A DNA stretch of 64,000 nt from Lingula anatina (taxonomy: Eukaryota; Animalia; Brachiopoda), in the NCBI GenBank assembly GCA_051362555.1, contig CM120649.1, positions 17,188,567 to 17,252,566 on the forward strand. The letters are read 5' to 3'. The position numbers and the translations under genes were made by a program. The notes beneath the pieces were generated by a model. That model had not been told where the DNA came from, made no database searches, and saw only the letters and a program-made list of their open reading frames with translations. Every line of letters starts with the position of its first letter. The first letter of the stretch is position 1. Below, piece after piece: positions 18,421 through 64,000 of this stretch.

Positions 18421-18426
18421 TATAAA
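18421..18426 (+). promoter_or_regulatory. Putative TATA box of subtilase copy 4 (also at 10627 for copy 3)
   Basis: TATAAA lies 95 bp upstream of the ATG in copies 3 and 4 and is degenerate at the equivalent position in copies 1 and 2. Confidence 0.5.
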
Positions 18427-18515
18427 TTCCACTTAATCTGCAAAGCGAAAGTAGTACTTGGAACAGTCGAGGCGTGGTGTCCTTTAAGTTAATACTTGCA
18501 ACTTTAGGCACCAAT

Positions 18516-24600: not shown

Positions 24601-24704
24601 TCTCCCATCAGTAACCCCATTACTTCTTCCCTCTCCGTGGACAGAGCATGCGCCAGGCACACCATGAAGGCGTCTGAGTCTAAATGTACGGCAGTAACTG
24701 CCAT
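21665..24704 (-). CDS. BRCC3: Lys-63-specific deubiquitinase BRCC36 (JAMM/MPN+), 7 exons, 276 aa
   Basis: Exons 24704-24600, 24128-24009, 23596-23509, 23254-23166, 22948-22884, 22499-22324 and 21852-21665 join in frame. Motifs HALSTEREEVMGL, DRVEISPEQLS and GWYHSHPHITVWPSHVDVRTQAMYQ. Confidence 0.96.
23597..24008 (-). other. U12-type AT-AC intron (BRCC3 intron 2)
   Basis: 5' splice site ATATCCTT, branch site TTCTTAAC at 23613-23606, AC terminus. Gives an in-frame phase-0 junction TQAE|RLAHE. Confidence 0.92.
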
Positions 24705-25000
24705 TTTCCCACTGCTTTGCGAATAAATGTCACCCAGTGTTGAAACCAACAACTAAACCGGAAGTTCAACCATGACATATGAAGACGATCGCGGAATCGG
24801 ACTCCTATTTCAAAAGAGCTCTAGTCAACAACACCACGCTAAACTCCAAAGTCCGTGCTGTTTGTGCAGAGAATAATTAATGTGTAGGTTACAGCTGTGG
24901 TGTAGGGCGTGCGTAGAACAATAGAGAAATAAGGTATGGGAAGAACTCGTGGTCTCTTTTGCTCTGCATTCATGTTTGATCTCGAATTTTATGGTTATTA
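24705..25000. promoter_or_regulatory. Probable bidirectional promoter for BRCC3 and the DUF229 gene
   Basis: Head-to-head genes, locally CpG-richer sequence and an ETS-type CCGGAAGT at 24758-24765. Confidence 0.5.
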
Positions 25001-25854
25001 TATTTAAATGAAACATATGAACATATGAAAGTTAAAACGTAGGCATTGTTTTTGTCTTAGTCCAAGATCGAGAGAGAAATAATCACGCGATCTACCTCAG
25101 CTCAATATTAATATTAATATATAATTTAATCCGAAATTTCAGACCGTACTCTGCTGTTAACAAAGCATTTGTTGCTACATCAGTGTTCATATCTATTGAT
25201 AATTTTTAACAGACTCTACAGCCAGCATATACTGTAGTACTTAACAGATAAAGTTTAATTATTATTGGACGGCTTGGCTTATTGATTTGTTTTGATGAAA
25301 AATAAAAACAGGACAGGAAGTGTCACATAAAATAAATAAGTAAAGGTAAAATTGTCATTGTCTGATCTCCTTGATGACTATGCAGGCTGCCTTTTAATGC
25401 CGATAGGTTACCAGTTATTAATCCTGTGAGCTTGGACGTACAGCTTCATGGCAGGCATTGCTTATTTTTATCAGTTAAAATAAATAAATAAGAAATAAAA
25501 GAAAAAAAGGAAGAAAAAAGTGATGACATTTTCTATCCCCTTCATAGTACTGTATAATTGTAATATATTGTGATACTCATTAATAATGTTTTTGTTATTA
25601 CAAACAGATCCAAGTAAATTATATTCACTGCAGTCAGACCACCTTCAAGACCTACAGTATACCCGGCATGTTACCCAGGAACCATGTAAACCTCTTATCT
25701 TAGGTCATAAACCTCATGACAAGTTCATTCCAAATGTCTTCCCAAAGTCTGTCTATATACATGTATATTGACCCCAGGATTATCATTTAATAAAGGTATG
25801 TCAATGTCCTTTTCTTTGTTTTTTCAGTCAGGCTGTCTATGGTAAAGTGATAAA

Positions 25855-28800: not shown

Positions 28801-29777
28801 TAAAGTTATAGACTATATCAATGGCCTGACATCTCAACACAGAGAGAAGTGTAGTGTGCTACACCTTGATAAGATCCTTAGTGTCAGGTTGCTAGCACCA
28901 AATGAACAGGTAATAAGTGCTCTATGGTCTGTGTTAATGTTGTACATATTTATGGCTGTGAGAACTAGTTTGATTGTAATGTGTAAATAAATTTATCTTA
29001 GATAACCATTAAAATGATTTTGGTAAAAAGTGAAAGGGGAATTTGACAGGTTATAGATGAAGTTATGAAATGTTGAAGTGATGGTTACAGTATAGGTGAA
29101 AAGAAGCAGTTAAAACAAAGACAAGTAGACACATAGTGATTGCAGGCCACATTTGATAAAAAGAAAACTTGATAACACATCCTTTGATCTCTTACTTAGT
29201 ATTTTGTCAAATTGATTCTGTTAGTTCTGATTTAGAAAAATTAACAGATTGGCCTCTTTATTTTAGTTTCTAGCAAATTTTCATGAGTAGAAATGTTTGT
29301 CTTCAGTGCTACATTTAGATTGATGAAAATTAAACGATACAGTTTAAGATGAGAAAAAAATTCAGACATCTCAAAATTTATGTATACCTATTAGTAGATG
29401 TTTAACATGTAAAAAGGTACATTGGACAAGTTTTAAATAATTTTCTTTTTACCTACATGCGTCTTCAGGTGCTGAAATATTTTAACAGTATGGATGCAGA
29501 CCAGCGAATTGCCAATTTCACTTCCAAGGTCAAGGTTGACATTGTTCATTACCAGATCACCTTGGTTACCTCTCCTAGCAACGCTATGTACGAGTCAACA
29601 TTGCAATACAACATTGGGGCAGAGAGACTGGAGGTTACCCCAGATATCAGCAGAATCAATATATATGGCAATCAGCCATATTGTGTACAAAAGAACCATC
29701 CGGATTTGAGGAAGTACTGTTTCTGTGCGGACTATCAAAGCTGGGAGAAGAGAAAGAAAAAATTGAAACATGATTAA
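25855..29777 (+). CDS. DUF229-family (alkaline phosphatase/sulfatase-like fold) type II membrane protein, 5 coding exons, ~823 aa
   Basis: Exons 25855-26841, 27154-27385, 27788-28543, 28722-28909 and 29469-29777 have GT-AG ends and join in frame. N-terminal TM helix. Motifs NVLMLALDSMS, GYNIVGD, PTDHYMRP, MGDHGAR, GKLEERLP, RLTTPFD, PHWCSC, SRINIYG..C, LRKYCFC. Confidence 0.9.
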
Positions 29778-32549: not shown

Positions 32550-35500
32550 GTTTAATATTGCAAATAAGTTAACAAAAGAAAAAAAAAGATGAATAACAGT
32601 GCCTTATTATCCTCAAACACATTGGGGTTATTCATATCATGTTATTACAGCAAGATTAAAAGTTTGAATAGCAGCAGCCAGCTTCAATGGGATATTTTTG
32701 TTGTGTTTTCTTTTTAATTTATTTTTCAAACATTGGCATTTTCAGCTCCCATCCACCTGAAGCTCTTCACATTTTCTGTATTTCCACATAAGCAGTTGCA
32801 TTGTTTTTTATGTCTTTAAACATTATGTAATATTATCTTATGCACAGTCATCATTATTCAAATATTGGGATTTTCATTATGTGAATTTGAACTCTCATGG
32901 TCCTGAAACTGTAATCTTATTGCAGGGGTGGATTGAGGCCGCCTTCTGGGTCTTTCAGATTTTAAAGTTCACATTGATGGGTATCTGTTTTTTCTGTTGG
33001 AAGACCATCAAAAATGTAGGATGGATCAACAAAGATAATTTGGAATACTGTCAGAAAATATCTCTGGGTCCACTCCTGTTATTGACGATGTCACCTGTTG
33101 TGCATGATTAAAATTCAGTGTTGATTGACAGTACTATTATAGGCATGATTTATTATTGCATCAAAATTGACAAAATGAACCATTTTCTGCATTTTTATTT
33201 TCTGTTTTTGTCTGTACATTTGACAGTTTTGCTGCCTTGTTAATAATGAAATATATGTATCATGGATTTTCAGAACATGTGATTTGCATGGGTCTTCAAG
33301 GCATTGGAGGTTCTAAGTCACACCTTGAAAATGCCAATATGTAAAAAATTTAATTTTCACAAAAAAACTGTTTAACTGCCAGAAAAATTTACCAAACAGA
33401 TTGCATTGCCTACTGAAGCTGTATTATAGTCCCATGATTCTTCCCTGAAAGTTTGAGAACAGTAAGTGACAGGGTTTTCCTTAAATGGACATCATGGGAG
33501 CAGTGCCCAAAATAGGGGTTTCTTCAAATTTTGATGCAATATTACATAATGTTTAAAAGCATTATGACCATCAATCTTTAATAATAAAATATTAGTATCA
33601 TGGATATTCAGAAAATGTGACTAGCAAAGGTCTTCAGGCCCATTGAAGTTCAAAGTCACACCTTGAAAATGCCCAAATGTAAACAAGACAGCACCGTTCT
33701 GAATTTTTTTTTTTTTTTCATTTTTAACAATTTTTTAACATTAACAGTTTACTGCCATTTTTATGTATCAACTGAAAAATTGATGAGATGGGAAAAATAT
33801 CAAAAGAACAGTGTTAAATGTCCAATTTAGTGAATGATTGAATCTGACAAACTGCAATGATATGAGTTTTTTTCCATTTTTGAAACGTTATTACACAATA
33901 CATGATAAGTTTACCATCATTTTTACTTAATTAATTAATGTTGTAAAGATGCAGGAAATGTCAAACAAACACTTTTAAGTATCTTTAATATTAGTTTTAA
34001 AATAATGAGACTGTTAACATGCCTAAGAATTGAATCTGAGGAAATGTGAAAAAACAGCATAACTTCTACAATAATGGCCCGATTAGGCTGATTTTCGAAC
34101 TCAGCCTGCGTTTTATTAAGATTGACTACTTCTGTGAGTTTCATGACAATTGGCCTATCTGTTTTTCTAATATTGTGTTTACTGGGTTGCATATATGCTA
34201 AAAAGTGAAAAAACAGCATAACTACTGAAATAGAAGCCCGATCGTGCTGATTTTCGAACTGAGCCTGCGTTTTATAAATATTCATCAGCTCTGTTAATAT
34301 AAAGCCAAAAAGTAAAACTGTCTTCCACTTATCGTGTTTACGCTGAAAGTGCACAGCGACGGCGACGACAGCGACGACGGCGAATACGAGGGTTGATTGA
34401 TAAGTAGTGAGCCTCGTGTGGAAAAGGTTAAGCAGGGATATCCCTTTACAGCCCTTCTATTCCCTGACTATTTAAAGGTGTGTAGCCGAAGTTTGGTGTA
34501 ATTTGGTTTATGTCGACGAGGTAGCACTCTCAAATAAGCAAGGCAAGTGACTTTTGCAAAATGCCCCTGCTCACAAGTATGTCATTGCCATGGCTGCAAT
34601 CAACGAGTGTGGCTTTGAACTGATAGAACATCCACCTTATTCGCCTGATCTTGCTCCCTCTGACTATTATCTATTTCCCAAATTGAAAAAAGCCATTTCA
34701 GGTACTCACTTTGTGTCAGAAGATGACGTCAGGCGTGAAATGGAGGGGTCTCTGAACGGCCAAGAGAAGGGCTTCTATAAAAGTGGCATAGAGGCTCTCA
34801 AAACTAGCTGGCAAAAGTGTATAGATACTCAACGAGACTATGTTGAAAAATAAAGAAAAATACTTGTAAAATGTGTACCCCTTCTATATGAGGCTCACTA
34901 CTTATCAATCAACCCTCGTACGGTGACGACAGACGCAGGTGATGGCAATATGTTCAGGCACATCTGTGTCTGTACAGTACATAAAAACAAGGCAGCAAAG
35001 CTGTCAAATGTACAGACAAAAAACAGAAAATAAAGATGCAAAATAGGTCATTTTGTCAATTTTGATGCAATAATAAATAATGCTTATAATAACACAGTCA
35101 GTTAACACTGATTTTTAATCATGCACAACAGGTAACATGGTCAATAACAGGAGCAGATCCAGAGATATTTTCTGACAGTATTCCAAAAGCATCTTTGTTG
35201 ATCCATCCTCCACTTTTGATGGTCTTCCAACAGAAAAAAATTGATACCAGTCAATGTAAACTTTAAAATCTGACCGTCATCTGAAAGACCCACAAGACGG
35301 CCTCAATCCACCCCTGCAATAAGATTACAGTTTCTGGACTATGAGAGTTCAAATTCACATAATGAAAATCCCAATATTTGAAAAATGTTGACAGTGCATA
35401 GAATAATATTACATAATGTTTAAAGACATAAAAACCTATGCAACTGCTTATGTGGAAATACAGAAAATCTGAAGAGCTTCAGGTGGATGGGAGTTGCAAA

Positions 35501-38301
35501 TGCCAGTGTTTAGAAAAAAAATTAAAAAGAAAACACACACACAAAAAAATTCCAATAAAGCTGCTATTCAAACTTTTAATCTTGCTGTATTAACATGATA
35601 TGAATAACCCCAATGTGTTTGAGGATAATAAGGCACTGTTATTCATCTATAGCATTAATGTTGGCATTACACAATTTTTTTTCTTTTGTAAACTTATTTG
35701 CATTATTAAACAACATTTACCTGCATAATTATCACCAATTCCTAATTATGTGACACAGTTAAGAGAGCTTAACCTATAGAAAATGGGTCATTTTGTCAAT
35801 TTTGATGCAGTAATAAATAATGCTTATAATAGCACTGTCAATCAACACTGAATTTTAATCATGCATAACAGGTAACATGCTCAATAACAGGAGCAGATCC
35901 AGAGGTATTTTCTGACAGTATTCCAAATTATATTTGTTGATCCATCCTACACTTTTGATGGTCTTCCAACAGAAAAAAATTGATACCAGTCATTGTAAAC
36001 TTTAAAATCTGACCGTCATCTGAAAGACCCAGAAGACGGCCTCAATCCACCCCTGCAATAAGATAACAGTTTCTGGACTATGAGAGTTCAAATTCACATA
36101 ATGAAAATCCCAATATTTGAAAAATGTTGACAGTGCATAAAATAATATTACATATTGTTTAAAGACATAAAAACCTATGCAACTGCTTATGTGGAAATAC
36201 AGAAAATCTGAAGAGCTTCAGTTGAAAATGCCAGTGTTTAGAAAAAAATTAAAAAGAAAACACAAAAAAATAAAAATAAAAAAAATCCAATAAAGCTGCT
36301 ATTCAAACTTTTAATCTTGCTGTATTAACATGATATGAATAATCCCAGTGTGTTTGAGGATAATAAGGCACTGTTATTAATCTATAGCATTAATGTTGGC
36401 ATTACACAATTTTTTTTTTTTTTTTTTTGTAAACTTATTTGCAATATTAAACAACATTTACCTGCATAATTATCACCAATTCCTAATTATGTGACACAGT
36501 TAAGAGAGCTTAACCTATAAGACTTGAATGGGAAATCTCAACGTGTGTTTTATGTAATCTTATTTAATGGGCACTTGAAAATCAATTAGGCAAGTAATTT
36601 TATAGCTCTGAATTTAGCTAGTGATTATCCCAAGGGACAATTACCACCATCCATAAACAGTAGCCCCATATAGCACTCCATAGAGCTGCATTGCCTCCAA
36701 AACAGAAAACAATCACACTGATTTCCAACACAAGCTACACTTCAGTCCTATGAAACTTTTCAGTAAGTTAGAATATCATAAGTAAAATGATTTTTCCTTA
36801 ATGGTCATCCCAGCAGCGATGTCCAAAAAAGGTTTTTTTTTTCATCTTTTATGCAATTTAACATAATGCTTAACAGCACAACATTTGGTCATCAATTTTT
36901 AATAATAAAGTAAATGTATCATAGCTATTCAAAAGATGGGACTAGCAATGGTATTCAAGCCAATGGAAGTTCAAAGACTAAGTCACACCTTGAAAATGTC
37001 CATATGTGAAAATTTTAATTGTAACAAAAAACTATAATGCTTAACAGCATAATGACCATCAATTTTTAATAATAAAATAAAAGTATCATGGATATTCAGA
37101 AAAATTGATATGGAAAGGTCTTCAGGGCCATGGAAGTTCAGAGTCACAACTTCAAAATGCCAAAATGTACACAAGAGATAACTGTACTGAAATGAATTTC
37201 TTTCCACTTTCAACACTTTTTTTTACATATATATATATCAAAATAATCAATTTACTGTCGTTTTTAAATGATCAACTAAGAAAGTTGTTGACATAGGAAA
37301 AATATCAATAGAACAATTTTAAATGTCCAATTTGTTCCATTCTGAGATTCTGAACATGGTGAATGATTGAATCTGACAAACTGTAAAGATATGAGTTTAT
37401 TTCCATTTTTGACACTTTATTACACAATGCACAAGAACAGGTTTACCATCATTTTTATATAATCAACTAACAATATTGTTAAGATGCAGAAAATGTCAAA
37501 AGAACACCTTTACATTACTAATTAGTTCACAAATGAGATTCTTAACATACCTATGAATTAAATCCGAGGAAAAAAGACTTATATACAAAAGAAGGCACAA
37601 TTTCACCAAAACTGAACCGATCAAGCTTATTTTCGAACCTCATCTGTATTTTAGTAAATCTGATCACCCCTGTGAATTTCAAGACGATTGGCCAATTGAT
37701 TTTCCTTGAAATGTGTTATCAGTGTTGCACATATGCTGAAATAGTGAAAAAACAGCATAACTTCCATAAAAATGGCCCGATCAGGCTGATTTTCAAACTT
37801 GACCTGCATATTTTGAATATTCATCAGTTTTGTAAGTTTCAAGCCAAAAGGTAAAATGGTTTTCCATTTATCGTGTTATCGGTGCTGCATATATGCTGAA
37901 AAAAGTGAAAAAACAGCATAAATTCCCTATAAGTGACCCGATCATGCTGATTTTCGAACTTGACCTGCGTATTATGAATATTCATCAGTTCTGTAAGTTT
38001 CAAGCCAAAAGGTAAAATGATTTTCCACTTATATTGTTATCGGTGCTGCATATATGCTGAAAAAAGAGAAAAAACAGCATAAATTCCCTATAAGTGACCC
38101 GATCATGCTGATTTTCGAACTTGACCTGCGTATTACGAGTATTCATCAGTTCTGCAAGTTTCAAGCCAAAAGAAAAAACAGTTTTCCACTTATCATGTTA
38201 TCGGTAAAAGTGCACGGCGACGACGGCGACGGCGACGGCGACGGCGACGACAGACGCAGATGATGGCTATATGTACAGACACATCTGTGTCTGTACATAA
38301 A
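32550..38301. mobile_element. Cluster of HINE/Helentron-like elements (plus fragment 32550-33240; minus copies ~33257-34985 and ~34987-38301)
   Basis: Same termini and ~160-bp units as 12468-16679. Internal ~740-bp tandem duplication at 35041-35778/35781-36518. Confidence 0.75.
34387..34918 (+). mobile_element. Internally deleted mariner element
   Basis: 29-bp TIRs CGAGGGTTGATTGATAAGTAGTGAGCCTC, TA TSD (empty site at ~42121), transposase C-terminus HPPYSPDLAPSDYYLFPKLK. Confidence 0.95.
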
Positions 38302-38927
38302 AAGAAGGTCGGTATTAACTGAAAAGATCCATGAGGCCATGAGAAGTCTTCACGCACTTGTCTTTATTCTAATGACGACGACGAGTTGGAGCTTTCAACC
38401 GTTTGTTTAACCGCTGACCCTTTTTTACAAATCCAAGAGTTTATAAGCTTTATATGCTCTCCGTACCATCACCCATTTACTCGTTTTTTTTTTTTTTTTT
38501 TGTTTTTTACATTGTAGTTTGCTTGATTACCAGTCTTTTCCATTCATTCGTTCATCCAATATTTCCTTAGAAAGAAGTCTGTTAGAGCCTTTTGTCATAA
38601 AAAATCTAAAGTATTTGAATTACTAAAACTTGCGTCATACCCATCACTCAGTTTGCATGTGTTGAACACGTGATGGAAACGTTCAATTCCATTGTGGAGT
38701 TAACCAAGGAAATAAACTTGGACATGTTCCATCTTTTCCTTATACGAAAAGTGTTTTCTACACTTGTTAACTCTTAAAGAAATTTAACTCACACTCAGTA
38801 ACCCCTTTTTCCTTTTACCTATTTGATTCATTTTCAATTTTTCTTTTTTCCCAGTGGTTTTAATTATAAACTAGGACAGTCCTGGCATCAAGCGGTTTCA
38901 GCACCTACTGTACAAATGTATAAATGG

Positions 38928-39077
38928 TGACGTAAGTGAATGACTCGGCCTGAATGAGGTGCGGGCAGGTAAGACGATAGGGTTTATATAATCTGACGTA
39001 CAGGGACAACATAACCAGCTCCATTATCACTGCAGCTTGCATAAAACATTAAAATTGTCTTACTATACAACGCGAAA
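38928..39077 (+). promoter_or_regulatory. TATA promoter and 5' UTR of the peptide-precursor gene (second copy ~43607-43756)
   Basis: TGACGTAA (CRE-like) at 38928, TATATAA at 38985, AAAATG start context. Essentially identical in both copies. Confidence 0.6.
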
Positions 39078-39254
39078 ATGAAGACCGCACTCGTGCTGCT
39101 CTTGGTATTTACGGTTGTTGGTGCTAGGTAGGTTTTAATGGATTTCTCATACTTATACCCCCTCACCCCTTTACACTGGACAGCATCCTTTGTCTCCTTT
39201 GTCCGACCATGAATCTGGTCCAGTTTCAAAAAACAAAAACTTAAATCAGTCCCT

Positions 39255-39298
<44 letters not shown>

Positions 39299-42200
39299 AC
39301 AGTTGTCGGCACGTACAGTATATTTTACTCTAAAACAGGACCGAACTCGGGGACATCCAGTGTAAAGGGGCTTACATGTGAAGCTGTCAAGTGTACAGAC
39401 AAAAAGTGGAAAATAATGCATAAAATAGGCTACTGTGAATTCTGATGCAAAAGTACATTATGCTTAACTGCAAATTCAACATCAAATTTTAATTATGCTC
39501 AACAGGTAATACCAATGTAAGTAAAATGTGTAACAAGCATAAGGCTTCAGGCCCAAGGGAGTTCAGGTTCACACTTTGAAAATGCCAGAATGAGAAAAAT
39601 GAACATTTCACAAAAAATTGCATTCAATAATAAATGATAACCCAATTGAGCTGACTTTCTAATTTGAACTGCATGACCATCCTAAAAATCATACTTGTAA
39701 GTTAAAAATAATAATAAGTAACACAGTTTTCTTTTCATAATATTTGTAGCAACAGTGCAAAAATATTTTTGTCAATTTTGATGTAACAGAATAATTATCA
39801 ACTTTTGATCATTGACTATAAGTAGCATGGACTATAAATAGCATGTAAATTTGATAACCATTCGGCTTCATGTCCATGGGAGCTCTGAGTCCCACAATGA
39901 ATATGCCAAAAAGATAAAAATAAAAAATGTATAACTTCCAGAAAAAGAAGCCAATTAGACTGTTTTTTCAACTCAGGCTGCATTTTGATCCTGTGTTTCT
40001 TTTTTGAAAGTTTGACAATCATAAGTAATGTGGTTTTCCTTAAATGGTCATCATGGCAGCAGCACCCAAAATTGTGTTTTATTCTATTTTGATGCAATAT
40101 TACATAATGCTTAACAGCATAATGACCATCAATTTTAATAATAAAATATATGTATCATGGATTTTCAGAACATGTGACTAGCATGGGTCTTCAACCCCAT
40201 GGAGGTTCTAAGTCACACCTTGAAAATGCCAATATGTAAAAAATTTAATTTTCACAAAAAAACTGTTTAACTGCCAGAAAAATTTACCAAACAGATTGCA
40301 TTGTCACTGAAGCTGTATTTTAGTCCCACGTTTCATCCCTGAAAGTTTGAGAACAGTAAGTGACATGGTTTTCCTTAAATGGACATCATGGGAGCAGTGC
40401 CCAAAAAAAGGGGTTTCTTCAAATTTTGATGCAATATTATATAATGTTTAACAGCATAATGACCATCAATCTTAAATAATAAAATATACGTATCATGGAT
40501 ATTCAGAAAATGTGACTAGCAAAGGTCTTCAGGCCCATGAAGGTTCAAACTCACACCTTGAAAATGCCCAAATGTAAACAAGACAGCACTGTTCTGAAAT
40601 GTTTTTTTTTTTTTCCATTTTTAACAATTTTATAACATAAACAGTTTACTGCCATTTTTATGTATCAACTAAAAAATTGATGAGATGGGAAAAGTATCAA
40701 AATAACAGTGTTAAATGTCCAATTTCCTCCATTCTGAGATTCTGAACATAGTGAATGATTGAATCTGACAAACTGCAATAATATAGCTTATTTCCGTTTT
40801 TGAAACTTTATTACACAATACACGATAAGTTTACCATCATTTTTACTTAATTAACTTACAATGTTGTAAAGATGCAGGAAATGTCAAACAAACACTTTTA
40901 AGTATCTTTAATATTAGTTTTAAAATAATGAGACTGTTAACATGCCTAAAAATTGAATCTGAGGAAATGTGAAAAAACAGCATAACTTCTAGTGTAGAAC
41001 AGTTTCATTAGCTATGTTATTATAATAGACTTGTGAAGATTCTTTTGTCTATAGCTATTTATATTAGTTTGATCTTACCATCCAATATTTCATCTGCTTG
41101 CAGTCAGATTTTATCAGGGAATGAGGTTGTGACAGGTATGACAACCTGTCACCCCCTCTGGTGTGCTATTTACATGAAAGGGGTTAGTGAAAAGCTAAAA
41201 AGAGCATTCAGAAAAAGGAATGTAGTATTACACCATAAGGCAGGACAGACACTAAGAGGCATCCTAGTATCCCCAAAGGACAAATTAGACCCAGGAGAAC
41301 AGTGTGGAGTTGTATACCAGTGTGAGTGTCAGGTGTGTGGAGAGAAATACATCGGAGAGACAGGACGTTCCTTAACTGAAAGAATCGCTGAACATCAAAA
41401 ATCGATCAAAAAACATGATAAAAAATCTGCCCTCAGCCAACACCAGGAACAGACAGGGCATTGTATAACATCAACAACCATAGAAGACATAATAATCTTG
41501 GAAAGAGAGCCACGAGATCTACACCGGAAAGTTCTTGAAGCAATTAACATCCGCTTACATGGGGCTAAGTTGAATCGGAATGATGGGACTGAGCTACCCA
41601 ACCTCTACCTACCACTCCTAAGGGAGGGGCAGGCAAGGGGGGGATCTGACCAAATAGCACACCAGAGGGGGTGACAGGTTGTCATACCTGTCACAACCTC
41701 ATTCCCTGATGAAATCTGACTGCAAGCAGATGAAATATTGGATGGTAAGATCAAACTAATATAAATAGCTATAGACAAAAGAATCTTCACAAGTCTAGCA
41801 TAACTTCTACAATAATGGCTGATTATCGAACTCAACCTGCGTTTTATTAAGATTGAGCGCTCCTGTTAGTTTCATGACAATTGGCCTATCTGTTTTTCTT
41901 ATATTGTGTTTACAGTGTTGCATATATGCTAAAAAGTGAGAAAAAAAAACAGCATAACTACTGAAATAGAAGCCCGATCGTGCTGATTTGCGAACTGAAC
42001 CTGCGTTTTATAAATTTTCATCAGCTTTGTAAATATAAAGCCAAAAAGTGAAACTGTCTTCCACTTATCGTGTTTACGCTGAAAGTGCACGGCGACGGCG
42101 ACGACAGCGACGACGGCGAATACGGTGACGACAGACGCAGGTGATGGCAATATGTTCAGGCACATCTGTGTCTGTACATAAAAAAAAAAGAAGTTCGGTA

Positions 42201-45200
42201 TTAACTGAAAAGATCCATGAGGCCATGAGAAGTCTTCACGCACTTGTCTTTATTCTAATGACGACGACGAGTTGGAGCTTTCAGCCGTTTGTTTAACCGC
42301 TGACCTTTTTTACAAATCCAAGAGTTTATAACTTTATTAAGCTTTATATGCTCTCCGTTTTTTTTTTTTTTTTTTTTTGACAGTTGTCGGCACGTACAGT
42401 ATATTTTACTCTAAAACAGGACTGAACTCGGGGACATCCAGTGTAAAGGGGTTTACATGTGATTTTTAGATTTCGTCGATTATTTTCTTCAATTATTTCA
42501 GATTTGCACGGATAATAATCTGTTTAAAAATCGTCTCCCTTAACTAACCATACTCGGGTTTCCCATAAATTCTGAGAATTTTTCACCAATGTTTTGTCTT
42601 ACCAGGTTGGGACTCTCGGAGGCACAAGAGGATAATAGGTAAGTCACAATAATAATAACTTTTACTTGTTTCAACGATTTTAAGGGTTATGCCCCACAGG
42701 GTAGCCCACAATTATATATTGAAAGTATTAACTTAGAGAAAATATACGTACCATGGGTAATGTAACCTTACAATAGGCCTACAACCAAGGAGTTATAACT
42801 CCTTGATCAGCCAATCCACGAAAAAGGGTACAATTCTGAATAATACCTGTCGCAGCTTATTTTCGGTAGTAAAAGCATCTGCAATTAAGCTTTTATGTAG
42901 CCTTTTTTAGCAGGACCCGATGTGTTCTACTTAAAAAACAACAATTAATATAGCACCACTTGCTTTGACGGAAACCCCGGGGGTCTAGATGTCGCAAAAA
43001 GCACGGTTTCCACGCGTCGCTTCGGTATTATAGCTGATTTGCCACAAGAAAAGTTTATATTTTCCCGTATTTTAGTGTGTTTAGTCCTCAAGTAAATTGA
43101 ATTCATGTTTCTTTTTATCATACAAAGTGTTCTCTCCATGAGGCCATGAGAAGTCTTCACGCACTTGTCTTTATTCTAATGACGACGACGAGTTGGAGCT
43201 TTCAGCCGTTTGTTTAACCGCTGACCTTTTTATATATATTTCCTTAGGAAGAAGTCTGTTAGAGCCTTTTTTCATAAAAAAAATCTAAAGTATTTGAATT
43301 ATTAAAACTTGTGTCATACCCATCACTCAGTTTGCATGTGTTGAACACGTGATGGAAACTTTCAATTCCATTGTGGGGATAACCAAGGAAATAAACTTGG
43401 ACATGTTCCATCTTTTCCTTATACGAAAAGTGTTTTCTACACTTGTTAACTCTTAAAGAAATTTAACTCACACTCAGTAACCCCTTTTTCCTTTTACCTA
43501 TTTGATTCATTTTCAATTTTTCTTTTTTCCCAGTGGTTTTAATTATAAACTAGGACAGTCCTGGCATCAAGCGGTTTCAGCACCTACTGTACAAATGTAT
43601 AAATGGTGACGTAAGTGAATGACTCGGCCTGAATGAGGTGCGGGCAGGTAAGACGATAGGGTTTATATAATCTGACGTACAGGGACAACATAACCAGCTC
43701 CATTATCACTGCAGCTTGCATAAAACATTAAAATTGTCTTACTATACAACGCGAAAATGAAGACCGCACTCGTGCTGCTCTTGGTATTTACGGTTGTTGC
43801 TGCTAGGTAGGTTTTAATGGATTTCTCATACTTATACCCCCCCCCCCCCCTTTACACTGGACGGCATCCTTTGTCTCCTTTGTGCGACCACGAATCTGGC
43901 CCAGTTTCACAAAAAAACTTAAATCAGTCCCTGTTTTTTCCTTTTTTCTTTTTTATTTTTTGGACAGTTGTCGCCACGGACAGTATATTTTACTCTTAAA
44001 CAGGGCCGAACTCGGGGACATCCAGTGTAAAGGGCCGGGGTTTTACATGTGATTTTTAGATTTTGTCGATTATTTTATTCAATTATTTCAGATTTGCACG
44101 GATAATAATCTGTTTAAAAATCGTCTCCCTTAACTAACCATACTCGGGTTTCCCATAAATTCTGAGAATTTTTCACCAATGTTTTGTCTAAACAAGTTGG
44201 GACTCTCGGAGGCAGAAGAGGATAATACAGGGTTACTACCTAATATAGAATATTATTTTTTGGCTAGTAAATTTTCTACAAAATGTTCATTTTCTCTGTA
44301 ACTACTTTAAATCCAAAACTGAGGCGTGACTCCATGTGTAGCCAGGTGTGTTACCTAATTACTACACAACTCTCCTAACAATTGATGCATGCAGTTGCAT
44401 GTTCTGTGGTCAGAAATGTGAGGGGTGGTCTTTTCGGCAATTTCTGTCCTTGTATAAAAATGCATGGGTTTGACCAATCTTTGGAGTGTATTTTGAGAAG
44501 CAACTACGGAATCGCTCTGAAACTTGACAGGTACCTTAGAGAATATATGATTCGACTGCTAAGCAACGCAGCTTACTATGGGATTCTTGCTCTCAGAGAA
44601 AATGGCAGAAACGGACAGCCATTGCCAGGGAATGCAACATTTATCAGGAACTGTTAGTAAAGTCCTCCAAAGAAATGCTACAACAGGGGCACCTACTCCA
44701 ATACCTCCACCAGGGTGTCCGCGTACCACACCAAGAAGAAAGGATCGCCTTCTCCTTAGAGTGCGCCGTGCTGGTCGTACAAAGACAACCAGTGTCCTCA
44801 GAAAAGAGAGGCAGAATGTCATTCAAACGCCCATTTCAAGGTCCCTCGTGAACAAGAGATTACTGAAAGCCGGCTATTTTGCACGAAGACCAGTAGTGAA
44901 ACCACTGTTAGCAGCAGGTCATATACAGCGACGTCTGCAATGGGCTGGGGACCATGTGCGTTTGCAGCCAAAACACTGGAATCACGTCGTTTTTGGTGAT
45001 GAGGCCAGATATTGAGTTTTTAGGATTGAGGTTCGAATCCGTGTCCGCCGACATGTAGGAGAGGCATAAAACGATGTTTTTGGAAATCCTAGGGTGCAAG
45101 CAGGAGGTGGTAACGTCTCTCTTTGGGGAGCATTTCATGCCGGTGCCCAGAACAAGTTGGTTTTTCTAGGAGGCAACGTCAACCAGGGCTCCTACAGAGA

Positions 45201-48200
45201 CATTCTACAGCAAACAATGCTTCGATTTGTAAGAGTCATCTTCAGGAACAACTTTGTGTACCAAGACGACTGCGCAACTCCACATCGAGCTCGCAGAATC
45301 ATCGTTTTTCTTCAAAACCAATGGTTTCAGCAACTACCCTGGCCTGCAAACTCCCCAGATATGAACCCAATTGAAAATTTATGGCTATGGTCATCGGCCG
45401 GTAAATAGTGATGTTTTGGGACAGGCAAATATCACTTCGTGGAATGATATCTCCATCCAAACTCTAAAAAACTTGCCATAGAGTATGCTCTGTAGGATGA
45501 GGGCATTGCAAGCGGCTGCTGGAGGTCATACCCGCTATTGATGACTTTTCATGATTTACTGTAATGAGTTCTTTGACTGTGTAACATATCACTGTCATTT
45601 TCTCTAATATCTTAGCTTAAATTTATAGTGACATCAAACTGTTGAAATGGTTTTCTGGGGTGTTCTTTTCTTTGGAATGACATCTTATGTCAGATGTGAT
45701 ATTATTGACCAAAATATCTCACAATAGAAGACTGGATATTTTTATCACTCAGTGACATACTTCTTTGATGGATCAAGCCAAAAAGATTTTAATCAGCACT
45801 CAAAATAACAATGATAAAAAATATTCCATATTAAGTAGTAACCCTGTAGGTAAGTCACAATAATAATTACCTTTACTTGTTTCAACGATTTTAAGGGTTA
45901 TGCCCCACAGGGTAGCCCACAATTATATATTGAAAGTATTAACTTAAAGAAAATATACGTACCATAGGTAATGTAACCTTACAATACAACCAAGGAGTTA
46001 TAACTCCTTGATACAACTAACACTTTATATCAGTAAATTTTGAAAAGCGACGCATGTGAAATTCCGTCAATATACAAAAGCGAAGCTTGTTTGAAATGTA
46101 TATTTTTTCATTTGGGCTCATTTCCAATGAAATTATGACCCCATTCCCAGAGATTAGATCGATCTACTCTAGATCGACCTAACTCCTTGGGGGTTCACGC
46201 TGAATAGCTGTCAGCCGAGTGGGCACGAAAGTTAATTACCCCCTTACAGCTTGTAGTAGGCGGGACGGACATTTAAGCCGGATTGTTTGACAGTAATCTA
46301 GTGAGACTCCCCGCGGGGATAGATCGATCTAAAAGCTCTGGGAATACGCCCTATATGGCTACGTAGATCGACCCAACTCCACTGGAACTCTGATTAGCAC
46401 GCTTCTTCTTGTTTCCTACGTACTCATATAATCACCCGCTCTTATATATATGTATTTTACTGGTACCCAACGCCAGGAGGAGACTGTCAGAATTGTTCTC
46501 AAATATTTTGCCATCCTGACATTCCGAGCCTGAATTATCAAATTCAAAGTCTTTACAGCTTCTGTAAGTCACGTGTGCCGTTGACACTGAGTCAGTCCAC
46601 AAATGTCACTGAAGCTTGTTACATATTTGGTCGGCTTCCAAACCACTGACAATAAAGTAAATAAAGTAAATATAATCATGCTTTGGAGATACGGGGCACT
46701 GGTTGTTTGTATGGGTTCAACAGCTAACACGCCCCTTCTTCGTTGTTGGTCTTTGATGCATGATTTGGCAGGTGTCAACTTGCTTTTATAAAGGCAATTT
46801 CAATGCCAGTATAAACTAAATCGGAGGCGCTGCAGTAAACCAGTTCTGCAACATATTAGGTTGACTTGGCATCATTACGTGCGTTTTTTCTTGAAAACAA
46901 CACGTGCGTCATTACTTTTGCGGGTATTATATATAGCCTTTATTTGAGAGGTTAACACAAGTTAGACTGCAAACAGAGCCAAAAATCATTAGGTTCTACT
47001 TTAAGTACGGATGTTGTCTTCACCCTGCATTGTTTCTACATGTATATAACTTTTTTCTCGCATTGTCGATACGCCCCCCTCCCCCCACGCAGAGAGAGAT
47101 CGACATGTAACTCATGTTCCGATCATATTAAAGCACTTCTGTCACCTCACCTGGTGTCACTGTGTCTATTGGGGCGTAGAGCTGTGCTCGAGCTTTTGAA
47201 GTGCCTAAATGTATCCCATGACCCGACTTGACCTTAAAGCATTACCGGGCTCCGTATCTCGAAAGGTTCGTTATGTTGCGCACGTGCGCAAGCGTCTCGA
47301 TTCCATGGCCCCGTATCTCGAAAGAATCTGTTACGAAATCGAGACACTTGCGGACGTGCGCAACATAGCGAACCTTTCGAGATACGGAGTCCTGCCATCT
47401 CATCTGGTGTCAACGCGTCTTTAATGTCCTCCGGGCGTAGTGTTAAGGTCAATGGGCGATTTATGAAATGCAAGATTATTTGTAAGGTTGGGAATGTAAT
47501 GCATGCTTTATTATTATTATTATTTTATTATTCTTTTTTTTTTTTTTTTTTTTGACAATTTGCTTTTTCAGTTTTTTAGAGCCATTGTAATTTATCATAC
47601 GCTACAGTTGAGAGATTCATATTTGTTGTATCTTTTGTCTCAAAAGTAAACAAAGAGGCCATTAAGTATAGAAGATCTGACTACCCCTTCAAAAATGTGT
47701 CTCATTTAACATTCATTTACAGTTCTCAATCTGTTATTGGTGTATTTTTTTCAGTTCTAATGTTGTTTTGTAATGAATGTAACAGTTCGACAACTGTTTT
47801 TGGGAAGTCCTTCAGAATGTCGTAGAACAGTTAAAGAACAGCTTTCATTAAAAGAGAAAAACTTTATGTTCTAGGACAGATTAAGAACCCTAAGACCGCA
47901 TTCAAAACGATTTGAGCCAGGCTTTACAAATCCTGAGACTAAATATGGCGGGCGTACATGAAAGGAAAACCGCCCAATCTTTTAATAGTCTCTCCGCCTC
48001 TCACACGCCTCCCCACACGTCGTCCCTGCGGGGTGCAGTCATTAAATCTCAACTCGTTTGCACATAAAGATTGGGCTTCGACGGTGCTGGGGTCTAGGTG
48101 TGGCGCTCATTGCAATGCATCCTTGTCCAAAATTGGCAAAATTAAAAGCTTATTATCTACCATACGGAAGGAATTATAGGAAAATTTTTCATAGACGGCT

Positions 48201-49704
48201 GACCAAAAGTCATATGTGGCGATTTCAAGTATGCCCTTGGATTTGATCTTTATTTCAAAGTGAAACGGGCCAAAATTTTGGAAAAGAAGTAATTTTTTAC
48301 GAAAAAAAATTATTTGCGCTATAATTCAGAAACTTTCATTGGAATTTTGAATGTCAAACGTACATTTACATGTAATTCATTCCGCCACAATACCACTTTA
48401 TACCTACGGGACGCAGAAAGGATGCCCTCCAGTGTAAAGGGGGCTTAAGATGTTATTTATTAAGCATTGCAGTAGAAATTTCGAAACTTGGTGGCAATAC
48501 AAATCTGTTTAGAATGGCAGATGCAGGCTATGTAACGTCTTTCGCGAGACCTTAATCACATTTTGCATGTCAAAATTCTACTTAAAATCTTAATTCTATT
48601 TAAGGTCTATTTAAGATCTTGCCGTGCGTGTGTTTGTAATGAATGGGGTTTAACAGAATTATTGTCTTATACTGTTACCAAAATAACAAACATTATATTA
48701 TAAAATATTTACTTCTCTGTTTCAGTCACGCCGGTGGTTATGACGAAAATGTCGTCCTGAATGTTATTAAACGCGCGATAAACAACCACCGGATGAGAAG
48801 GGAATATTATGGCCCATTTTGTCCACCATGTTGTCCACCTTACTGTCGTAAGATGTGAGTAGTGATTGCTCGAATAGATCTAGGAGCCACCAAACTTTTG
48901 GTGGGTCGCAGAACAGAGACACACTTCGCATTTAGAGTTCAAGACTCGATCTGTATTGGCTGGGTTTTGAATTGAACACACAATAGTTTTCTTTATAGGC
49001 ATTCATTCATTCAAACATCATTTATTCTTTATTTTGAAATTATATCATTCATTGGACATTATAGAATTATACCACTATTATTGTATTATATGAGAGACAA
49101 AGTATATATATATATATATATATAGTGTTGTAGAATATATCGATGTGTTGAGAGGGAAATTGTACCGTAAAACCAGGAGGAAACCGCGGTTAAATAGGAA
49201 ACCGCAAGGAAATTGATTATGCTCATAATCGAGGGTACTTAGAGAGCACACTGTATTTCACAAATTGTCCAGAAATCTCTAGACTTTTAGGCGATTAGAA
49301 TGTATCTAATTGTGTTCCTTGTGCGAATTTCATGGCATGTTGTTTGAAGACGACATTGGTCTTAGCTTAGACTTTTGAGCAGGTTAGTGTCCCCTTTGCG
49401 AAATATCTAAATGAACCTTTTCTTCGTGTCTTCCATTTTAACTGAAACAATGGAAAATGGCGTAGCAATATACTGCGAGTGGCCATGCATGGTGACAAAA
49501 TAAAGTCCCGTTAGCTAGTAGCTACAGGTGCCTGGATGTGCTGTATTCATCAAATAAAACTATTTATTAGTCTGGATTAATGTGCGTATTACATGTATTC
49601 AATATTGGTGTTTTTTCTGGTTTTACAGCTCCGAGAACTCAAACTTGAAAGATGCGTCCATCCAAAAGATTGTCGAACGCAGCGTGCTGCAGACAAGGAA
49701 GTAG
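39078..49704 (+). CDS. Predicted 95-aa secreted Cys/Pro-rich peptide precursor (exons 39078-39127, 42606-42638, 48726-48854, 49629-49704; non-coding exon from 49991)
   Basis: All coding junctions are canonical GT-AG and phase 2. Translation: MKTALVLLLVFTVVGARLGLSEAQEDNSHAGGYDENVVLNVIKRAINNHRMRREYYGPFCPPCCPPYCRKISENSNLKDASIQKIVERSVLQTRK*. AATAAA at 50144 and 50175. Confidence 0.72.
40992..41796 (+). mobile_element. 5'-truncated Penelope-like retroelement (GIY-YIG endonuclease) with inverted pseudo-LTR
   Basis: GVVYQCECQVCGEKYIGETGR..RIAEH..SALSQH..LEAINI..LNRNDG. 41026-41171 is an inverted copy of 41652-41797. TSD AGCATAACTTCTA. Confidence 0.92.
41703..41742 (+). ncRNA. Minimal type I hammerhead ribozyme in the Penelope pseudo-LTR
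   Basis: CTGATGA, stem II (atctg..cagat), GAAA-TA-TT, with flanking tcc/gga pairing. Confidence 0.7.
43757..44227 (+). pseudogene. Second copy of precursor exon 1 (43757-43806, intact) and exon 2 (from 44196, damaged)
   Basis: MKTALVLLLVFTVVAA followed by a GTAGGT donor. The exon 2 acceptor is CAG>CAA, and a Tc1 sits in the TA just before its donor. Confidence 0.75.
44228..45846 (+). mobile_element. Full-length decayed Tc1-like transposon
   Basis: TIRs CAGGGTTACTACYTAATATRGAATATT, TA TSD, broken transposase (WNHVVFGDE; YQDDCATPHRA; WPANSPDMNPIENLW). Confidence 0.95.
46144..46345. mobile_element. Probable MITE
   Basis: Inverted ends attcccagag..tagatcgatcta / tagatcgatcta..ctctgggaat. Confidence 0.5.
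47246..47394. mobile_element. Fold-back MITE with ~56-bp arms
   Basis: ctccgtatctcgaaaggttcg..cgcaag(c)gtctcgatt is mirrored at 47337-47390. Confidence 0.75.
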
Positions 49705-50237
49705 ATGCGCATTTACAAAGGTGAAAATCCAAACTTGTAGACTGGATCAGAGACTGGGATAGGGAGAAGCGATCTTAATGTATTCTAAAATACGGAAGTA
49801 GTTTTTACCTGTTAAATGTTTAGATATTAGACGCTGTTTGCAATTCAGTTTCTTTAAGCAAATCCTTTTTTGCCTAGTTGTTGCTTATTTAGTGATTTAA
49901 AGGATGGTGCAAATGTACATGTGGCATCTGTGGTGCTACTGTACCTACCGTATTTACTAAGAGAGTTCGTCCACTTTTCTTTCATTACAGGTGTCCGTTA
50001 GATATCTGTAGAGACCACTTGGAAAACAACCATTGGAGAAACAATGAAGTAAAGACAGATACACAGATACATTCATTACTATTTGACACTGCTTTTAATT
50101 CATGGATTACATCAAAACTTTTCAGTTTCGATCTATTGAATGTAATAAATAAATTCAGACTTCAAATCGCCTTTAATAAAGTTGGATGTTGATATCGATG
50201 TTAGTTTTGAGGGTCCTTTCCTTACTTATGTGAATCC

Positions 50238-51432
50238 TTTTTTATGTACAGACAAAGATGTGTCTGTACATATTGCCATCACCTGCGTTTGTTGTCGCCG
50301 TCGCTGTCGCCGTGCACTTTCAGCGTTAAACACACGATAAGTGGTAGACAGCTTTACTTTTTGGCTTTATATTTACAGAGCTGATGAATATTCATAAAAC
50401 GCAGGTCAAGTTAAAAAATCAGCATGATCGGGCCATTATTGTAGAAGTTATGCTGTTTTTTCACTTTTCAGCATGTATGCAACACTGTAAACACAATATA
50501 AGAAAAACAGATAGGCCAATTGTCATGAAACTCACAGGAGTGGTCAATCTTACTAAAACGCAGGTTGAGTTCGAAATTATTTTAGAAGTTATGCTGTTTT
50601 TTCACATTTCCTCAGATTCAATTTTTAGGCATGTTAACAGTATCTTTATTTAACTTATAAGATACGTAAAAGTGTTTGTTTAACATTGTTAGTTGATTTT
50701 GTAAAAATAATGGTTAACTTGTTATCGTGTATTGTGTAATAGAGTTTCAAAAATGGAAATGAACTCATATCATTGCAGTTTGTCAGATTCAATCATTCAC
50801 TATGTTCAGAATCTCAGAATGGAGAAAATTGGACATTAAAAACTGTTCTGTTGATATTTTCCCCATCTCATCAATGGTCTTAGTTGGTCATATAAAAATG
50901 GCAGTAAACTGTTAATGCTGTTTTATGTTAAAATATTGTTTAAAGTGAAAAAATAAACATTTCAGAACATGGCATTTACAAGGTGTGACTTTAAAGTTCC
51001 ATGGGTCTGAAGACCTTTGCTAGTCACATTTTCTGAATATCCATGATATTAATATTTTATCATTAAAAATTGATGGTAATTATGCTATTAAACATTATGT
51101 AATATTGCATCAAAATTTGTAGAAACCCCTATTTTGGGCACTGCTCTCATGATGACCATTTAAGAAAGAACGTCACATACTATTCTCAAACTTACAGGAA
51201 AGAAACATGGGACTAAAATATATCTTCAGTAGGCAATGCAGTCCGTTTGGTAAATTTTTCTGCAATTATGCTTTAAATTACGTTTCTTCAAATTTTGATG
51301 CAACATTACATAATGATTAATAACTGTCTTCCACTTATCATGTTAACGCTGAAAGTGCACGACGACAGCGACGGCAACGACAGAAGCAGGTGATGGCAAT
51401 ATATACAGACACATCTGTGTCTGTACATAAAA
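50238..51432. mobile_element. Rearranged HINE-like element with two 5' ends in inverted orientation
   Basis: Plus-strand 5' end at 50238 and minus-strand 5' end at ~51323-51432. Confidence 0.7.
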
Positions 51433-53174
51433 ATGTCACCAATTTGCCCATTTTCAGTGTAAAACAAATCTGAAAGCTAGAGTTTGGATGATTTATAAGT
51501 AACTAAGGCAGCAGCACGTCAGGAAAAACAAAACACACTGTTTGCAACCTTTGATTTTTATTTTCCAATATTTTGTTACTTATTAAGTTTTAAAGCAAAA
51601 TCTAAACATGTTCACTATTTGAAGTATTGAGTATCACCTGTGCTCTCTTTGTGGCACACATATAGAATCATATCAACATCTTGAATACACCTTTCTGGTG
51701 CTTAGAGAAAACTGGACTGAAACACAGGCTGATGAGGACTTCAGTTCATATCTGTACAGGCAATTCCAGTCTTAGTACAGGCAATTCCAGTCTTTGAACA
51801 AAGCTTTGAAATGATGATTGCTACAAATCGAGTGACAATTAGGTCACGGCTAATTAGGTTGGAATCTAAGACCTGGGCTCTTCCCAAGTTTTCTTGCAAA
51901 GTAAACAATTGAAGTGCAGATAAATAAAGTCTATAAGTATTGTCAAAACCAACCAATTTATTTATTGCAAGTAGTCATGAATGTTATTTCTTTGTCACCA
52001 AGTACTACTGACAGATATAATAGCAATGTAGTTTGTTACTACAGTTCTCCATAAATAAATACACTGTAATTTCAACACCTTTTCTGTTATAAAAAGAATA
52101 TACACAAGTTCAAAACCCAAACAAAAATGTTTTACAGACAACCAAAAAAAATGAAGAAAAAAATCTAGTGGTTTTGTAAATACGACCCACGATTTAAGTT
52201 TGATTAGAACTGTAAAAAGGGGTAAGCATTTAAATTCACTTTTGTAGGAAGCTAAACCAACTGCTCCGGACAATTTTATTCTGACCTCTCGAAGAACCCC
52301 CCTTAAGACATTTTCCTTTGAGTAAATGGCATTTCTGGTTTCAAACTTACCAGTATTACGCGACAATGAAAGTGAATATGCTGGTATAAAGTTACAAAGG
52401 AAGAAGGGTAGAACTTCCTGTACCACAACAGTGATGCATCACTTCTTATCTAATATTACTACGTTATTAACACTTAAACTTGAACTCTTTTAGAGTCTTG
52501 AATAATTTACAGCCTCTCTCTCTCTCCACATTCGCTCAACTACTCTCTCACATTCATAGATCTGACAACAGCAACATTTTTGGGAGGGGGATTACCATGC
52601 AATTCAAACACATGGCCTAGTTTAGAAAACAATCTATAGAATGTTAAACAATATGTTTAACAAAGTAAAATTTGGTGCAGCTTGGCTTATATATTCTCCA
52701 CCAAAATGTTATCTACATTTATATAAATATAACAGTATGTTTTGGCCTAAATAAATTCATGTCACGTTGAAATTTTTTGCTTTGAAAATGAAATGACATG
52801 GCCTCTCTCCATTTTTTCTTCTTTTTCAACATGACTTACAAGTGTACCAACTCCTGATTCGTGGCACATCATTTTTTCCTTTGTAAATCCACAATATTGT
52901 CTCTATTTGCCTTTTTCAATGTGACCTGTCACGACACGTAAAATGTAAATTTAACAATACCACAGTTCAGAGCATATTGTAACAAGTACAAACAAGATGT
53001 TTCTGCACTATTTTTCACCCTGGTACATTTTGACAGTCCATCCTGTGCTCAAGTTTTCACTCGCTGTGTATCATGCAGCCGATTTAGCTTAAATAGAGCA
53101 CATACAGGTCAAATAACAGTTCTGTTCCACATTTGCTCCACGTTTCTCACCCGTTTTGAAAATAAATGGTAAAA
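51431..53174 (+). repeat. Direct repeat copy 2; probable distal TRIP12 3' UTR or flank
   Basis: Matches 30797-32534 and lies ~600 bp downstream of the TRIP12 stop codon. Confidence 0.9.

Positions 53175-53784: not shown

Positions 53785-64000
<10,216 letters not shown>

What the first reader, a model, noticed from the sequence alone, without database searches (positions are those of the whole stretch)
39078..50180. Hidden 5-exon gene for a toxin- or neuropeptide-like precursor releasing EYYGPFCPPCCPPYC
Seen: a TATA box, a 50-nt signal-peptide exon, a 33-nt micro-exon, a 129-nt exon, a stop-bearing exon, a UTR exon and two AATAAA signals. All coding introns are phase 2 and join into a 95-aa ORF. 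A 15-aa Cys/Pro-rich peptide (C-CC-C, repeated CPP) is bracketed by RMRR and RK. Known: signal/pro/RxRR/Cys-rich organisation on separate exons is typical of conotoxins, invertebrate defence peptides and neuropeptides; RxRR is the furin consensus. Inference: a lineage-specific bioactive two-disulfide peptide that I do not recognise. An N-terminal Glu could cyclise to pyroglutamate.
Basis: partly seen in the sequence, partly recalled or inferred. Interest (0 to 1): 0.9.

Follow-up and report, generated by a model that had tools for sequence, protein, structure and literature searches.

The report
Orphan brachiopod cysteine-rich peptide precursor

Summary
All five exons, GT-AG ends, phase-2 introns and the 95-aa frame are in the DNA. 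Exon 3 is 100% identical to Lingula anatina RefSeq XP_013415350.1, 'uncharacterized'. RNA covers exon 3 exactly, on the + strand, at low depth. One contig joins exon 3 to exon 4. All 7 upstream loose ends join exon 3 directly to a second copy of exon 1 (43757-43806) and skip exon 2, as RefSeq does. That predicts an 84-aa precursor. The 5' end is tandemly repeated in three partial units; one exon-2 copy has lost its acceptor and carries a Tc1 insertion. No homologue was found in any protein library searched. Signal peptide, RMRR cleavage and release of the C-CC-C peptide are predictions. An anionic, single-copy, low-expression peptide in a filter feeder fits a signalling peptide (0.45) better than a defence peptide (0.22) or a toxin (0.04).

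The parts
38559..39077 (+). Promoter, upstream copy (TATATAA at 38985); 512 of 519 nt identical to the downstream copy
39078..39127 (+).
42606..42638 (+). Exon 2, 33-nt symmetric phase-2 cassette with consensus donor; intact in DNA, absent from RefSeq and from 7 of 7 informative reads
43236..43756 (+). Promoter, downstream copy (TATATAA at 43664)
43757..43806 (+). Exon 1' (Ala15); predicted signal peptide; matches RefSeq residues 1-16 and the RNA loose ends
44197..44227 (+). Dead copy of exon 2: acceptor lost, split from its donor by a transposon
44228..45846 (.). Decayed Tc1/mariner element, TA-flanked, terminal inverted repeats; PF01498 and PF13358 fragments
48726..48854 (+). Exon 3: end of predicted signal peptide, pro-region, RMRR, 15-residue C-CC-C peptide, RK
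48802..48846 (+). Codons of the predicted mature peptide EYYGPFCPPCCPPYC (net charge -1; computed monoisotopic mass 1733.60 with two disulfides)
   Evidence: sequence
49629..49720 (+). Exon 4: C-terminal tail ending RK-stop (TAG 49702); inner donor after 49700 used by RefSeq
49991..50180 (+). Exon 5: likely 3' UTR, AATAAA at 50144 and 50175; coding in the RefSeq model

Best explanation
This is a transcribed, spliced orphan gene of the brachiopod Lingula whose product is likely a secreted pre-pro-peptide, predicted to be cut by a furin-type convertase into a small disulfide-bonded peptide that likely acts as a neuropeptide- or hormone-like signal. Shown: transcripts carrying the Ala15 exon 1' splice straight to exon 3 and on to exon 4. 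Inferred: an 84-aa precursor enters the ER on a 16-19-residue signal peptide, and the pro-region is removed at RMRR, with a favourable Glu after the site. The four cysteines pair within or between chains. The C-terminal RK is cut and trimmed to give the 15-mer, or is left uncut to give a 40-residue form with a helical tail whose terminal RK is trimmed. Cys-Pro-Pro-Cys disfavours a bond between its own two cysteines, so 1-3/2-4 pairing or a hinge-like covalent dimer is the likely arrangement. The 33-nt exon 2 is an ancestral pro-region cassette that can be lost in frame because all coding introns are phase 2.
For: Exon 3 is transcribed with exact ends on the + strand, with zero intron depth; exon1'-exon3 and exon3-exon4 junctions are seen. 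An independent RefSeq model has the same first three exons. Residues 4-16 have mean Kyte-Doolittle hydropathy 3.0. RMRR fits the R-x-R-R furin consensus and the stop follows RK directly, as in many prohormones (sequence; own knowledge). The stop is 16 nt before the last junction, so NMD is not expected (50-nt rule from own knowledge). The two promoter/exon-1 copies have 0 substitutions over 38701-39120 where the 4.5% intron divergence predicts about 19, which fits constraint or gene conversion. In RNA the exon-3 difference shared by X12, X15 and X10 (48768) is synonymous. Low read counts, one copy in the window and net charge -1 fit a signal better than a bulk defence or structural product. 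The CPPC disulfide constraint comes from a passage of PMC4848426.
Against: No SignalP, ProP or peptidomics could be run, so secretion and cleavage are untested. No homologue, receptor or tissue is known, so 'signalling' rests on layout and exclusion. The motifs are not in the supplement of the brachiopod neuropeptide survey PMC8557429. There is no amidation Gly. RK-Ile is a weak site. The X10 contig carries a Gly-to-Val change inside the peptide (48812; one contig, allele or error). RefSeq reads a longer 112-aa protein with two more Cys. AlphaFold on the single sequence is uninformative (pLDDT 50, pTM 0.24). Tissue of the runs is unknown, so low depth may only mean the wrong tissue was sampled.
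Confidence: 0.45

Rival explanations
1. Same precursor and processing, but the peptide is a host-defence, antifouling or feeding-deterrent peptide, or a small protease inhibitor, released from epithelia or coelomocytes.
For: Signal/pro/Cys-rich layout is common in invertebrate defence peptides (own knowledge). Orphan status and a rearranged, transposon-rich 5' end fit a fast-evolving gene. The very small X10 data set (8141 contigs) holds it at depth 8.3, so some tissue may express it well.
Against: Net charge -1 and only 15 residues, unlike cationic defensins, macins or big defensins (own knowledge). No Pfam family. No paralogue in the window. 2, 12 and 1 reads in three large libraries.
Confidence: 0.22
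2. A young or decaying orphan transcript whose protein has no selected function, or whose true product is the unprocessed 112-aa RefSeq protein; the peptide boundaries are coincidental.
For: No homologue among 5.8 billion clusters or 1.84 billion representatives. Low expression. RefSeq splices at an inner donor and has no stop in exon 4.
Against: Signal peptide, RxRR, four Cys and terminal RK occur in the order expected of a precursor. The RefSeq tail shifts frame between the RefSeq allele and this window, which suggests exon 5 is UTR. The inner donor is a poorer match to consensus than the outer one (sequence). The promoter is strongly conserved between copies.
Confidence: 0.16
3. A secreted structural or cross-linking protein (chaetae, periostracum, pedicle cuticle) in which CPPC/CPP units form inter-chain disulfides after the pro-region is removed.
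For: CPPC forms inter-chain rather than intra-chain bonds in IgG hinges (passage of PMC4848426). Cys/Pro-rich units are typical of cross-linked matrices (own knowledge).
Against: Not found in the supplements of two Lingula shell papers, searched by motif and, for one, by accession (their own gene ids may hide it). Very low read depth. Only one Cys/Pro unit, not a repeat array.
Confidence: 0.13
4. A conotoxin-like toxin used against predators or competitors.
For: C-CC-C is the cysteine arrangement of alphaB-conotoxin VxXXIVA (passages of PMC3559828). The pre-pro-peptide layout resembles most conotoxin precursors.
Against: No sequence match to any toxin. VxXXIVA is 40 residues with no pro-region and much longer loops. 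There is no expanded hypervariable family in the window, and expression is far below venom levels. Brachiopods are filter feeders with no known venom apparatus (own knowledge).
Confidence: 0.04

Closest known systems
RefSeq XP_013415350.1 / LOC106177190 / UniRef A0A1S3JY60 (Lingula anatina, uncharacterized, 112 aa)
   Same: Same locus: exon 1' and exon 3 identical, exon 4 with one Ile/Val difference.
   Different: No exon 2; inner donor in exon 4 and a coding exon 5; no function or peptide assigned; singleton cluster.
Single-copy cysteine-loop prohormones of spiralians (somatostatin-related peptides, allatostatin C, Medial DREP)
   Same: Signal, pro-region, basic site, short Cys-containing peptide, optional post-peptide (passages of PMC9048919 and PMC10501145).
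   Different: No WK motif, four Cys rather than two, all coding introns phase 2 rather than phase 0; 15 residues and no amide, against 40 residues with amide for Medial DREP.
alphaB-conotoxin VxXXIVA (C-CC-C framework)
   Same: Order of cysteines C-CC-C; four Cys, two possible disulfides.
   Different: 40-residue peptide, no pro-region, 28-residue signal, cone-snail venom duct; no sequence similarity found.
C17orf67 / DUF4543 (PF15076) small secreted chordate proteins
   Same: Top ESM Atlas feature neighbour in both searches, score 0.78-0.79; similar length (87-90 aa).
   Different: Score is below the 0.9 lead threshold and in the range of shuffled proteins; Pfam scan gives 0 families. A lead only.

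Membership tests
Secreted pre-pro-peptide (general kind) | Spliced, expressed transcript with intact frame | tested here: met
Secreted pre-pro-peptide (general kind) | Cleavable N-terminal signal peptide | tested here: inconclusive
   Hydropathy 3.0 over residues 4-16 and small residues at -3/-1 by inspection; no SignalP available
Secreted pre-pro-peptide (general kind) | Convertase sites flanking the peptide | tested here: met
   RMRR before and RK after, as sequence motifs; actual cleavage not shown
Secreted pre-pro-peptide (general kind) | Processed peptide detected in tissue | not testable with these tools
   Needs peptidomics
Neuropeptide | Expression in neurons and a cognate receptor | not testable with these tools
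   Tissue of runs is not given
Somatostatin-related peptides (protostome SSRP, consomatin) | WK motif in a two-Cys loop; phase 0 intron in the pro-region | tested here: not met
   Definition from passages of PMC9048919; no W or K in the peptide, introns phase 2
Allatostatin C | Two Cys with a six-residue loop; phase 0 intron | tested here: not met
Medial DREP | About 40-residue medial peptide, two disulfides, C-terminal amide, homology to family | tested here: not met
   Definition; no amidation Gly, no hit; motifs absent from 5 supplements held as text
Conotoxin superfamily of alphaB-VxXXIVA | C-CC-C cysteine order | tested here: met
Conotoxin superfamily of alphaB-VxXXIVA | 28-residue signal, no pro-region, 40-residue mature peptide, cone-snail venom duct | tested here: not met
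Cationic antimicrobial peptides (defensins, macins, big defensins) | Net positive charge and family profile match | tested here: not met
   Charge -1; 0 Pfam families; feature recalled from own knowledge
C17orf67 / DUF4543 | Match to PF15076 | tested here: not met
   0 families at E up to 10 (HMMER filters drop most matches above about 0.1); Atlas score 0.78-0.79 only

The most novel reading that the evidence does not exclude
The founding member of a brachiopod-specific signalling-peptide family with a new proline-rich C-x2-CC-x3-C scaffold, possibly a hinge-like disulfide-linked dimer, made from two tandem promoters as pro-region variants with and without the 11-residue exon 2.
Probability: 0.25. 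Interest if true: 0.65.

Novelty: new member of a known kind. Interest (0 to 1): 0.4.

Why it matters
Brachiopod peptide signalling is known mostly through families shared with molluscs and annelids. An orphan precursor with a short, synthesizable two-disulfide peptide is a direct candidate ligand for the many orphan lophotrochozoan GPCRs and peptide-gated channels, and a new small cystine scaffold if it folds. The locus also shows a micro-exon being lost in frame after tandem duplication and Tc1 insertion, and it suggests that the RefSeq C-terminus is mis-spliced. It is not a new kind of system, and nothing here points to a venom.

Tried and rejected
No whole genome is held, so paralogues outside the 64-kb window could not be sought. 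Protein searches: exon 3 against longer proteins gave 1 of 1 candidates, the RefSeq protein; the RefSeq protein against 61-196 aa gave only itself among 5 candidates; exon 3 against 23-74 aa gave no candidate. The 1.84-billion library gave 2 hits: itself and P0002, a repetitive cat protein whose score is summed over 7 repeats, rejected (24% identity, E 0.007 pairwise). Pfam gave 0 families. PDB sequence hits are chance level (best E 0.038 for the RefSeq tail; E 2.4 for exon 3). ESM Atlas gave only sub-threshold DUF4543 neighbours and no structure hit. The AlphaFold model was too poor for a fold search, so none was run. Sequencing-run search: no RNA holder listed among indexed runs, which is no evidence on expression; raw-read runs were laid instead. 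The length of the X10 contig does not decide between the two exon-4 donors. Its start within 2-3 nt of the exon-3 acceptor (255 + 131 of 387 nt) would fit two upstream exons joining there, but this is only a hint. Literature: accession and motif search of the full-text library gave 0 papers. Supplements searched without a hit: PMC8557429 (1 file; 'PPYC' hits shown are a neuroparsin entry), PMC13425148, PMC4595640, PMC10501145, PMC13121700. The supplement of PMC13542836 could not be read, and subscription papers on Lingula immunity were not searchable. Earlier scan findings: none. Rejected: that the exons belong to a repeat (exons 3-5 have no second match in the window). Also rejected as the sole explanation: two haplotypes assembled in tandem, because two locus-specific pieces occur three times.
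Full report
Observation. The peptide between RMRR and RK has 15 residues, 4 Cys, 5 Pro and net charge -1. It is the only C-x2-CC-x3-C motif and the only dibasic-flanked four-Cys stretch in the six frames of the window. Exons 3-5 have no second match in the window.

Identity. The 42 codons of exon 3 are 100% identical to part of XP_013415350.1 (LOC106177190), an uncharacterised 112-aa protein of the brachiopod Lingula anatina, a cluster of one. The gene is therefore annotated, not hidden. Nine of 21 listed sequencing runs hold half or more of the words of 48700-50200; all nine are one organism, from three studies.

Promoter and exon 1 are present twice: 38559-39127 and 43236-43806, with 512 of 519 promoter bases and 49 of 50 exon bases identical. 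The one exon difference changes residue 15 (Gly upstream, Ala downstream). Exon 2 is also present twice. The copy at 44197-44227 has lost its acceptor and is cut from its donor by a TA-flanked Tc1/mariner element at 44228-45846. Two locus-specific pieces occur three times (38328, 42214, 43135; 39299, 42380, 43964). The 5' end thus consists of three partial tandem units: promoter plus exon 1; exon 2 without promoter; promoter plus exon 1' plus dead exon 2'. Three copies are more than two uncollapsed haplotypes would give, but no DNA reads were laid here, so assembly error is not excluded. Lingula heterozygosity is given as 1.6% (passage of PMC4595640), against 4.5% between the duplicated introns. 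Over 38701-39120 the two copies have no substitution where about 19 are expected, which points to constraint on the promoter or to gene conversion.

RNA. Four of the 21 listed runs were laid on 48690-48950. Depth is confined to exon 3 in all four and is zero in the flanking intron. Counts are X12 2 reads of 12.4 M records, X15 12 of 9.5 M, X18 1 partial read of 11.1 M in the other direction, and X10 one contig at depth 8.3. First mates lie on the minus strand in X12 and X15, which fits a + strand RNA. All 7 upstream loose ends (X15, agreement 1) are the Ala15 exon 1' joined directly to exon 3. RefSeq residues 1-16 also equal exon 1' and it lacks exon 2. The X10 contig continues into exon 4 and runs 255 nt, beyond the 92 nt of that exon; only its first 30 letters were shown. 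The animals sequenced may carry a different 5' structure from this window, so the reads do not prove that the upstream copy is silent. Exon 2 is unlikely to be chance: it is the only such cassette on either strand of the window, and 0 of 500 simulated 9.6-kb sequences held one (criteria set after seeing exon 2). It is best read as an ancestral cassette that can drop out in frame.

C-terminus. RefSeq splices at an inner donor just before the stop and reads 28 more residues from exon 5. That tail maps in two frames on this window and would run 66 residues here, so exon 5 is not held to one frame between alleles. The outer donor matches consensus better, and its stop is only 16 nt from the last junction. 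Both forms keep the peptide.

Relatives. None were found: 5.8 billion clusters; 1.84 billion representatives; the one other hit is a repeat artefact; Pfam; PDB sequences; ESM Atlas, DUF4543/C17orf67 at 0.78-0.79, a lead only. Short peptides from poorly sampled phyla are easily missed by these searches. The single-sequence AlphaFold model is low-confidence (pLDDT 50).

Mechanism. Shown: transcription and two splice junctions. Inferred from sequence and general knowledge of convertases: ER entry, removal of a short pro-region at RMRR, disulfide formation, and release of the 15-mer or of a 40-residue form if RK-Ile is not cut. Cys-Pro-Pro-Cys does not allow an intrachain bond in IgG hinges (passage of PMC4848426), and vicinal bonds were inactive and unreported in the C-CC-C conotoxin study (passages of PMC3559828). 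That leaves 1-3/2-4 pairing or a covalent dimer as the likely forms. Pyroglutamate from Glu is possible but less usual than from Gln (own knowledge). Anionic charge, a single copy in the window, low depth in three large libraries and a filter-feeding host favour a signalling role (0.45) over defence (0.22), no selected peptide (0.16), structural (0.13) or toxin (0.04). One result against strong constraint on the peptide is a Gly-to-Val change in the X10 contig.

Comparison. It works like a single-copy cysteine-loop prohormone but fails the defining features of somatostatin-related peptides, allatostatin C (passages of PMC9048919) and Medial DREP (passages of PMC10501145). It shares only the cysteine order with alphaB-conotoxin VxXXIVA. 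Papers: passages and supplements of PMC8557429, PMC4595640 and PMC10501145; supplements only of PMC13425148 and PMC13121700; passages only of PMC9048919, PMC3559828 and PMC4848426; others as search listings. A full-text search for the accessions and the core motif found 0 papers. Tables using other gene ids, unread supplements (PMC13542836) and subscription papers could still mention it.

Verdict. A real, expressed orphan gene, already annotated but not interpreted, that is a credible new pre-pro-peptide. New member of a known kind; interest 0.4.

Noticed in passing
window 3675-5171, 10632-12014, 18426-19916 (+): Three tandem single-exon-looking subtilisin (Peptidase_S8) reading frames; the first and third hit PF00082, the third also Inhibitor_I9. 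The middle copy has an in-frame TAG at 11253. Long uninterrupted S8 frames in an animal genome may reflect retroposition or horizontal origin; untested.
   Followed up: partly
window 41012-41803: GIY-YIG endonuclease fragment (PF01541), likely from a Penelope-like element, lying between 152-nt inverted repeats of 98% identity (41020-41171 and 41652-41803), inside intron 1 of the upstream copy.
   Followed up: partly
window 12468-16667, 33093-34388, 36696-38303, 39381-42185, 50238-51433: An abundant dispersed repeat family with about 160- and 330-nt internal units, in both orientations; one copy starts about 60 nt after the last AATAAA. Not classified.
   Followed up: no
window 24279-24752 (-), 25846-29777 (+), 55320-55703 (-): Neighbouring genes: a JAB/MPN exon (BRCC36-like by recall), a DUF229 gene and a HECT-domain exon (TRIP12-like by recall). 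No peptide-processing or defence cluster.
   Followed up: partly
window 48812: G>T in the X10 contig changes the Gly of the predicted mature peptide to Val; absent from X12 and X15 reads. Allele or error.
   Followed up: no
window 47247-47392: 146-nt imperfect palindrome (81%) in the long intron, MITE-like.
   Followed up: no
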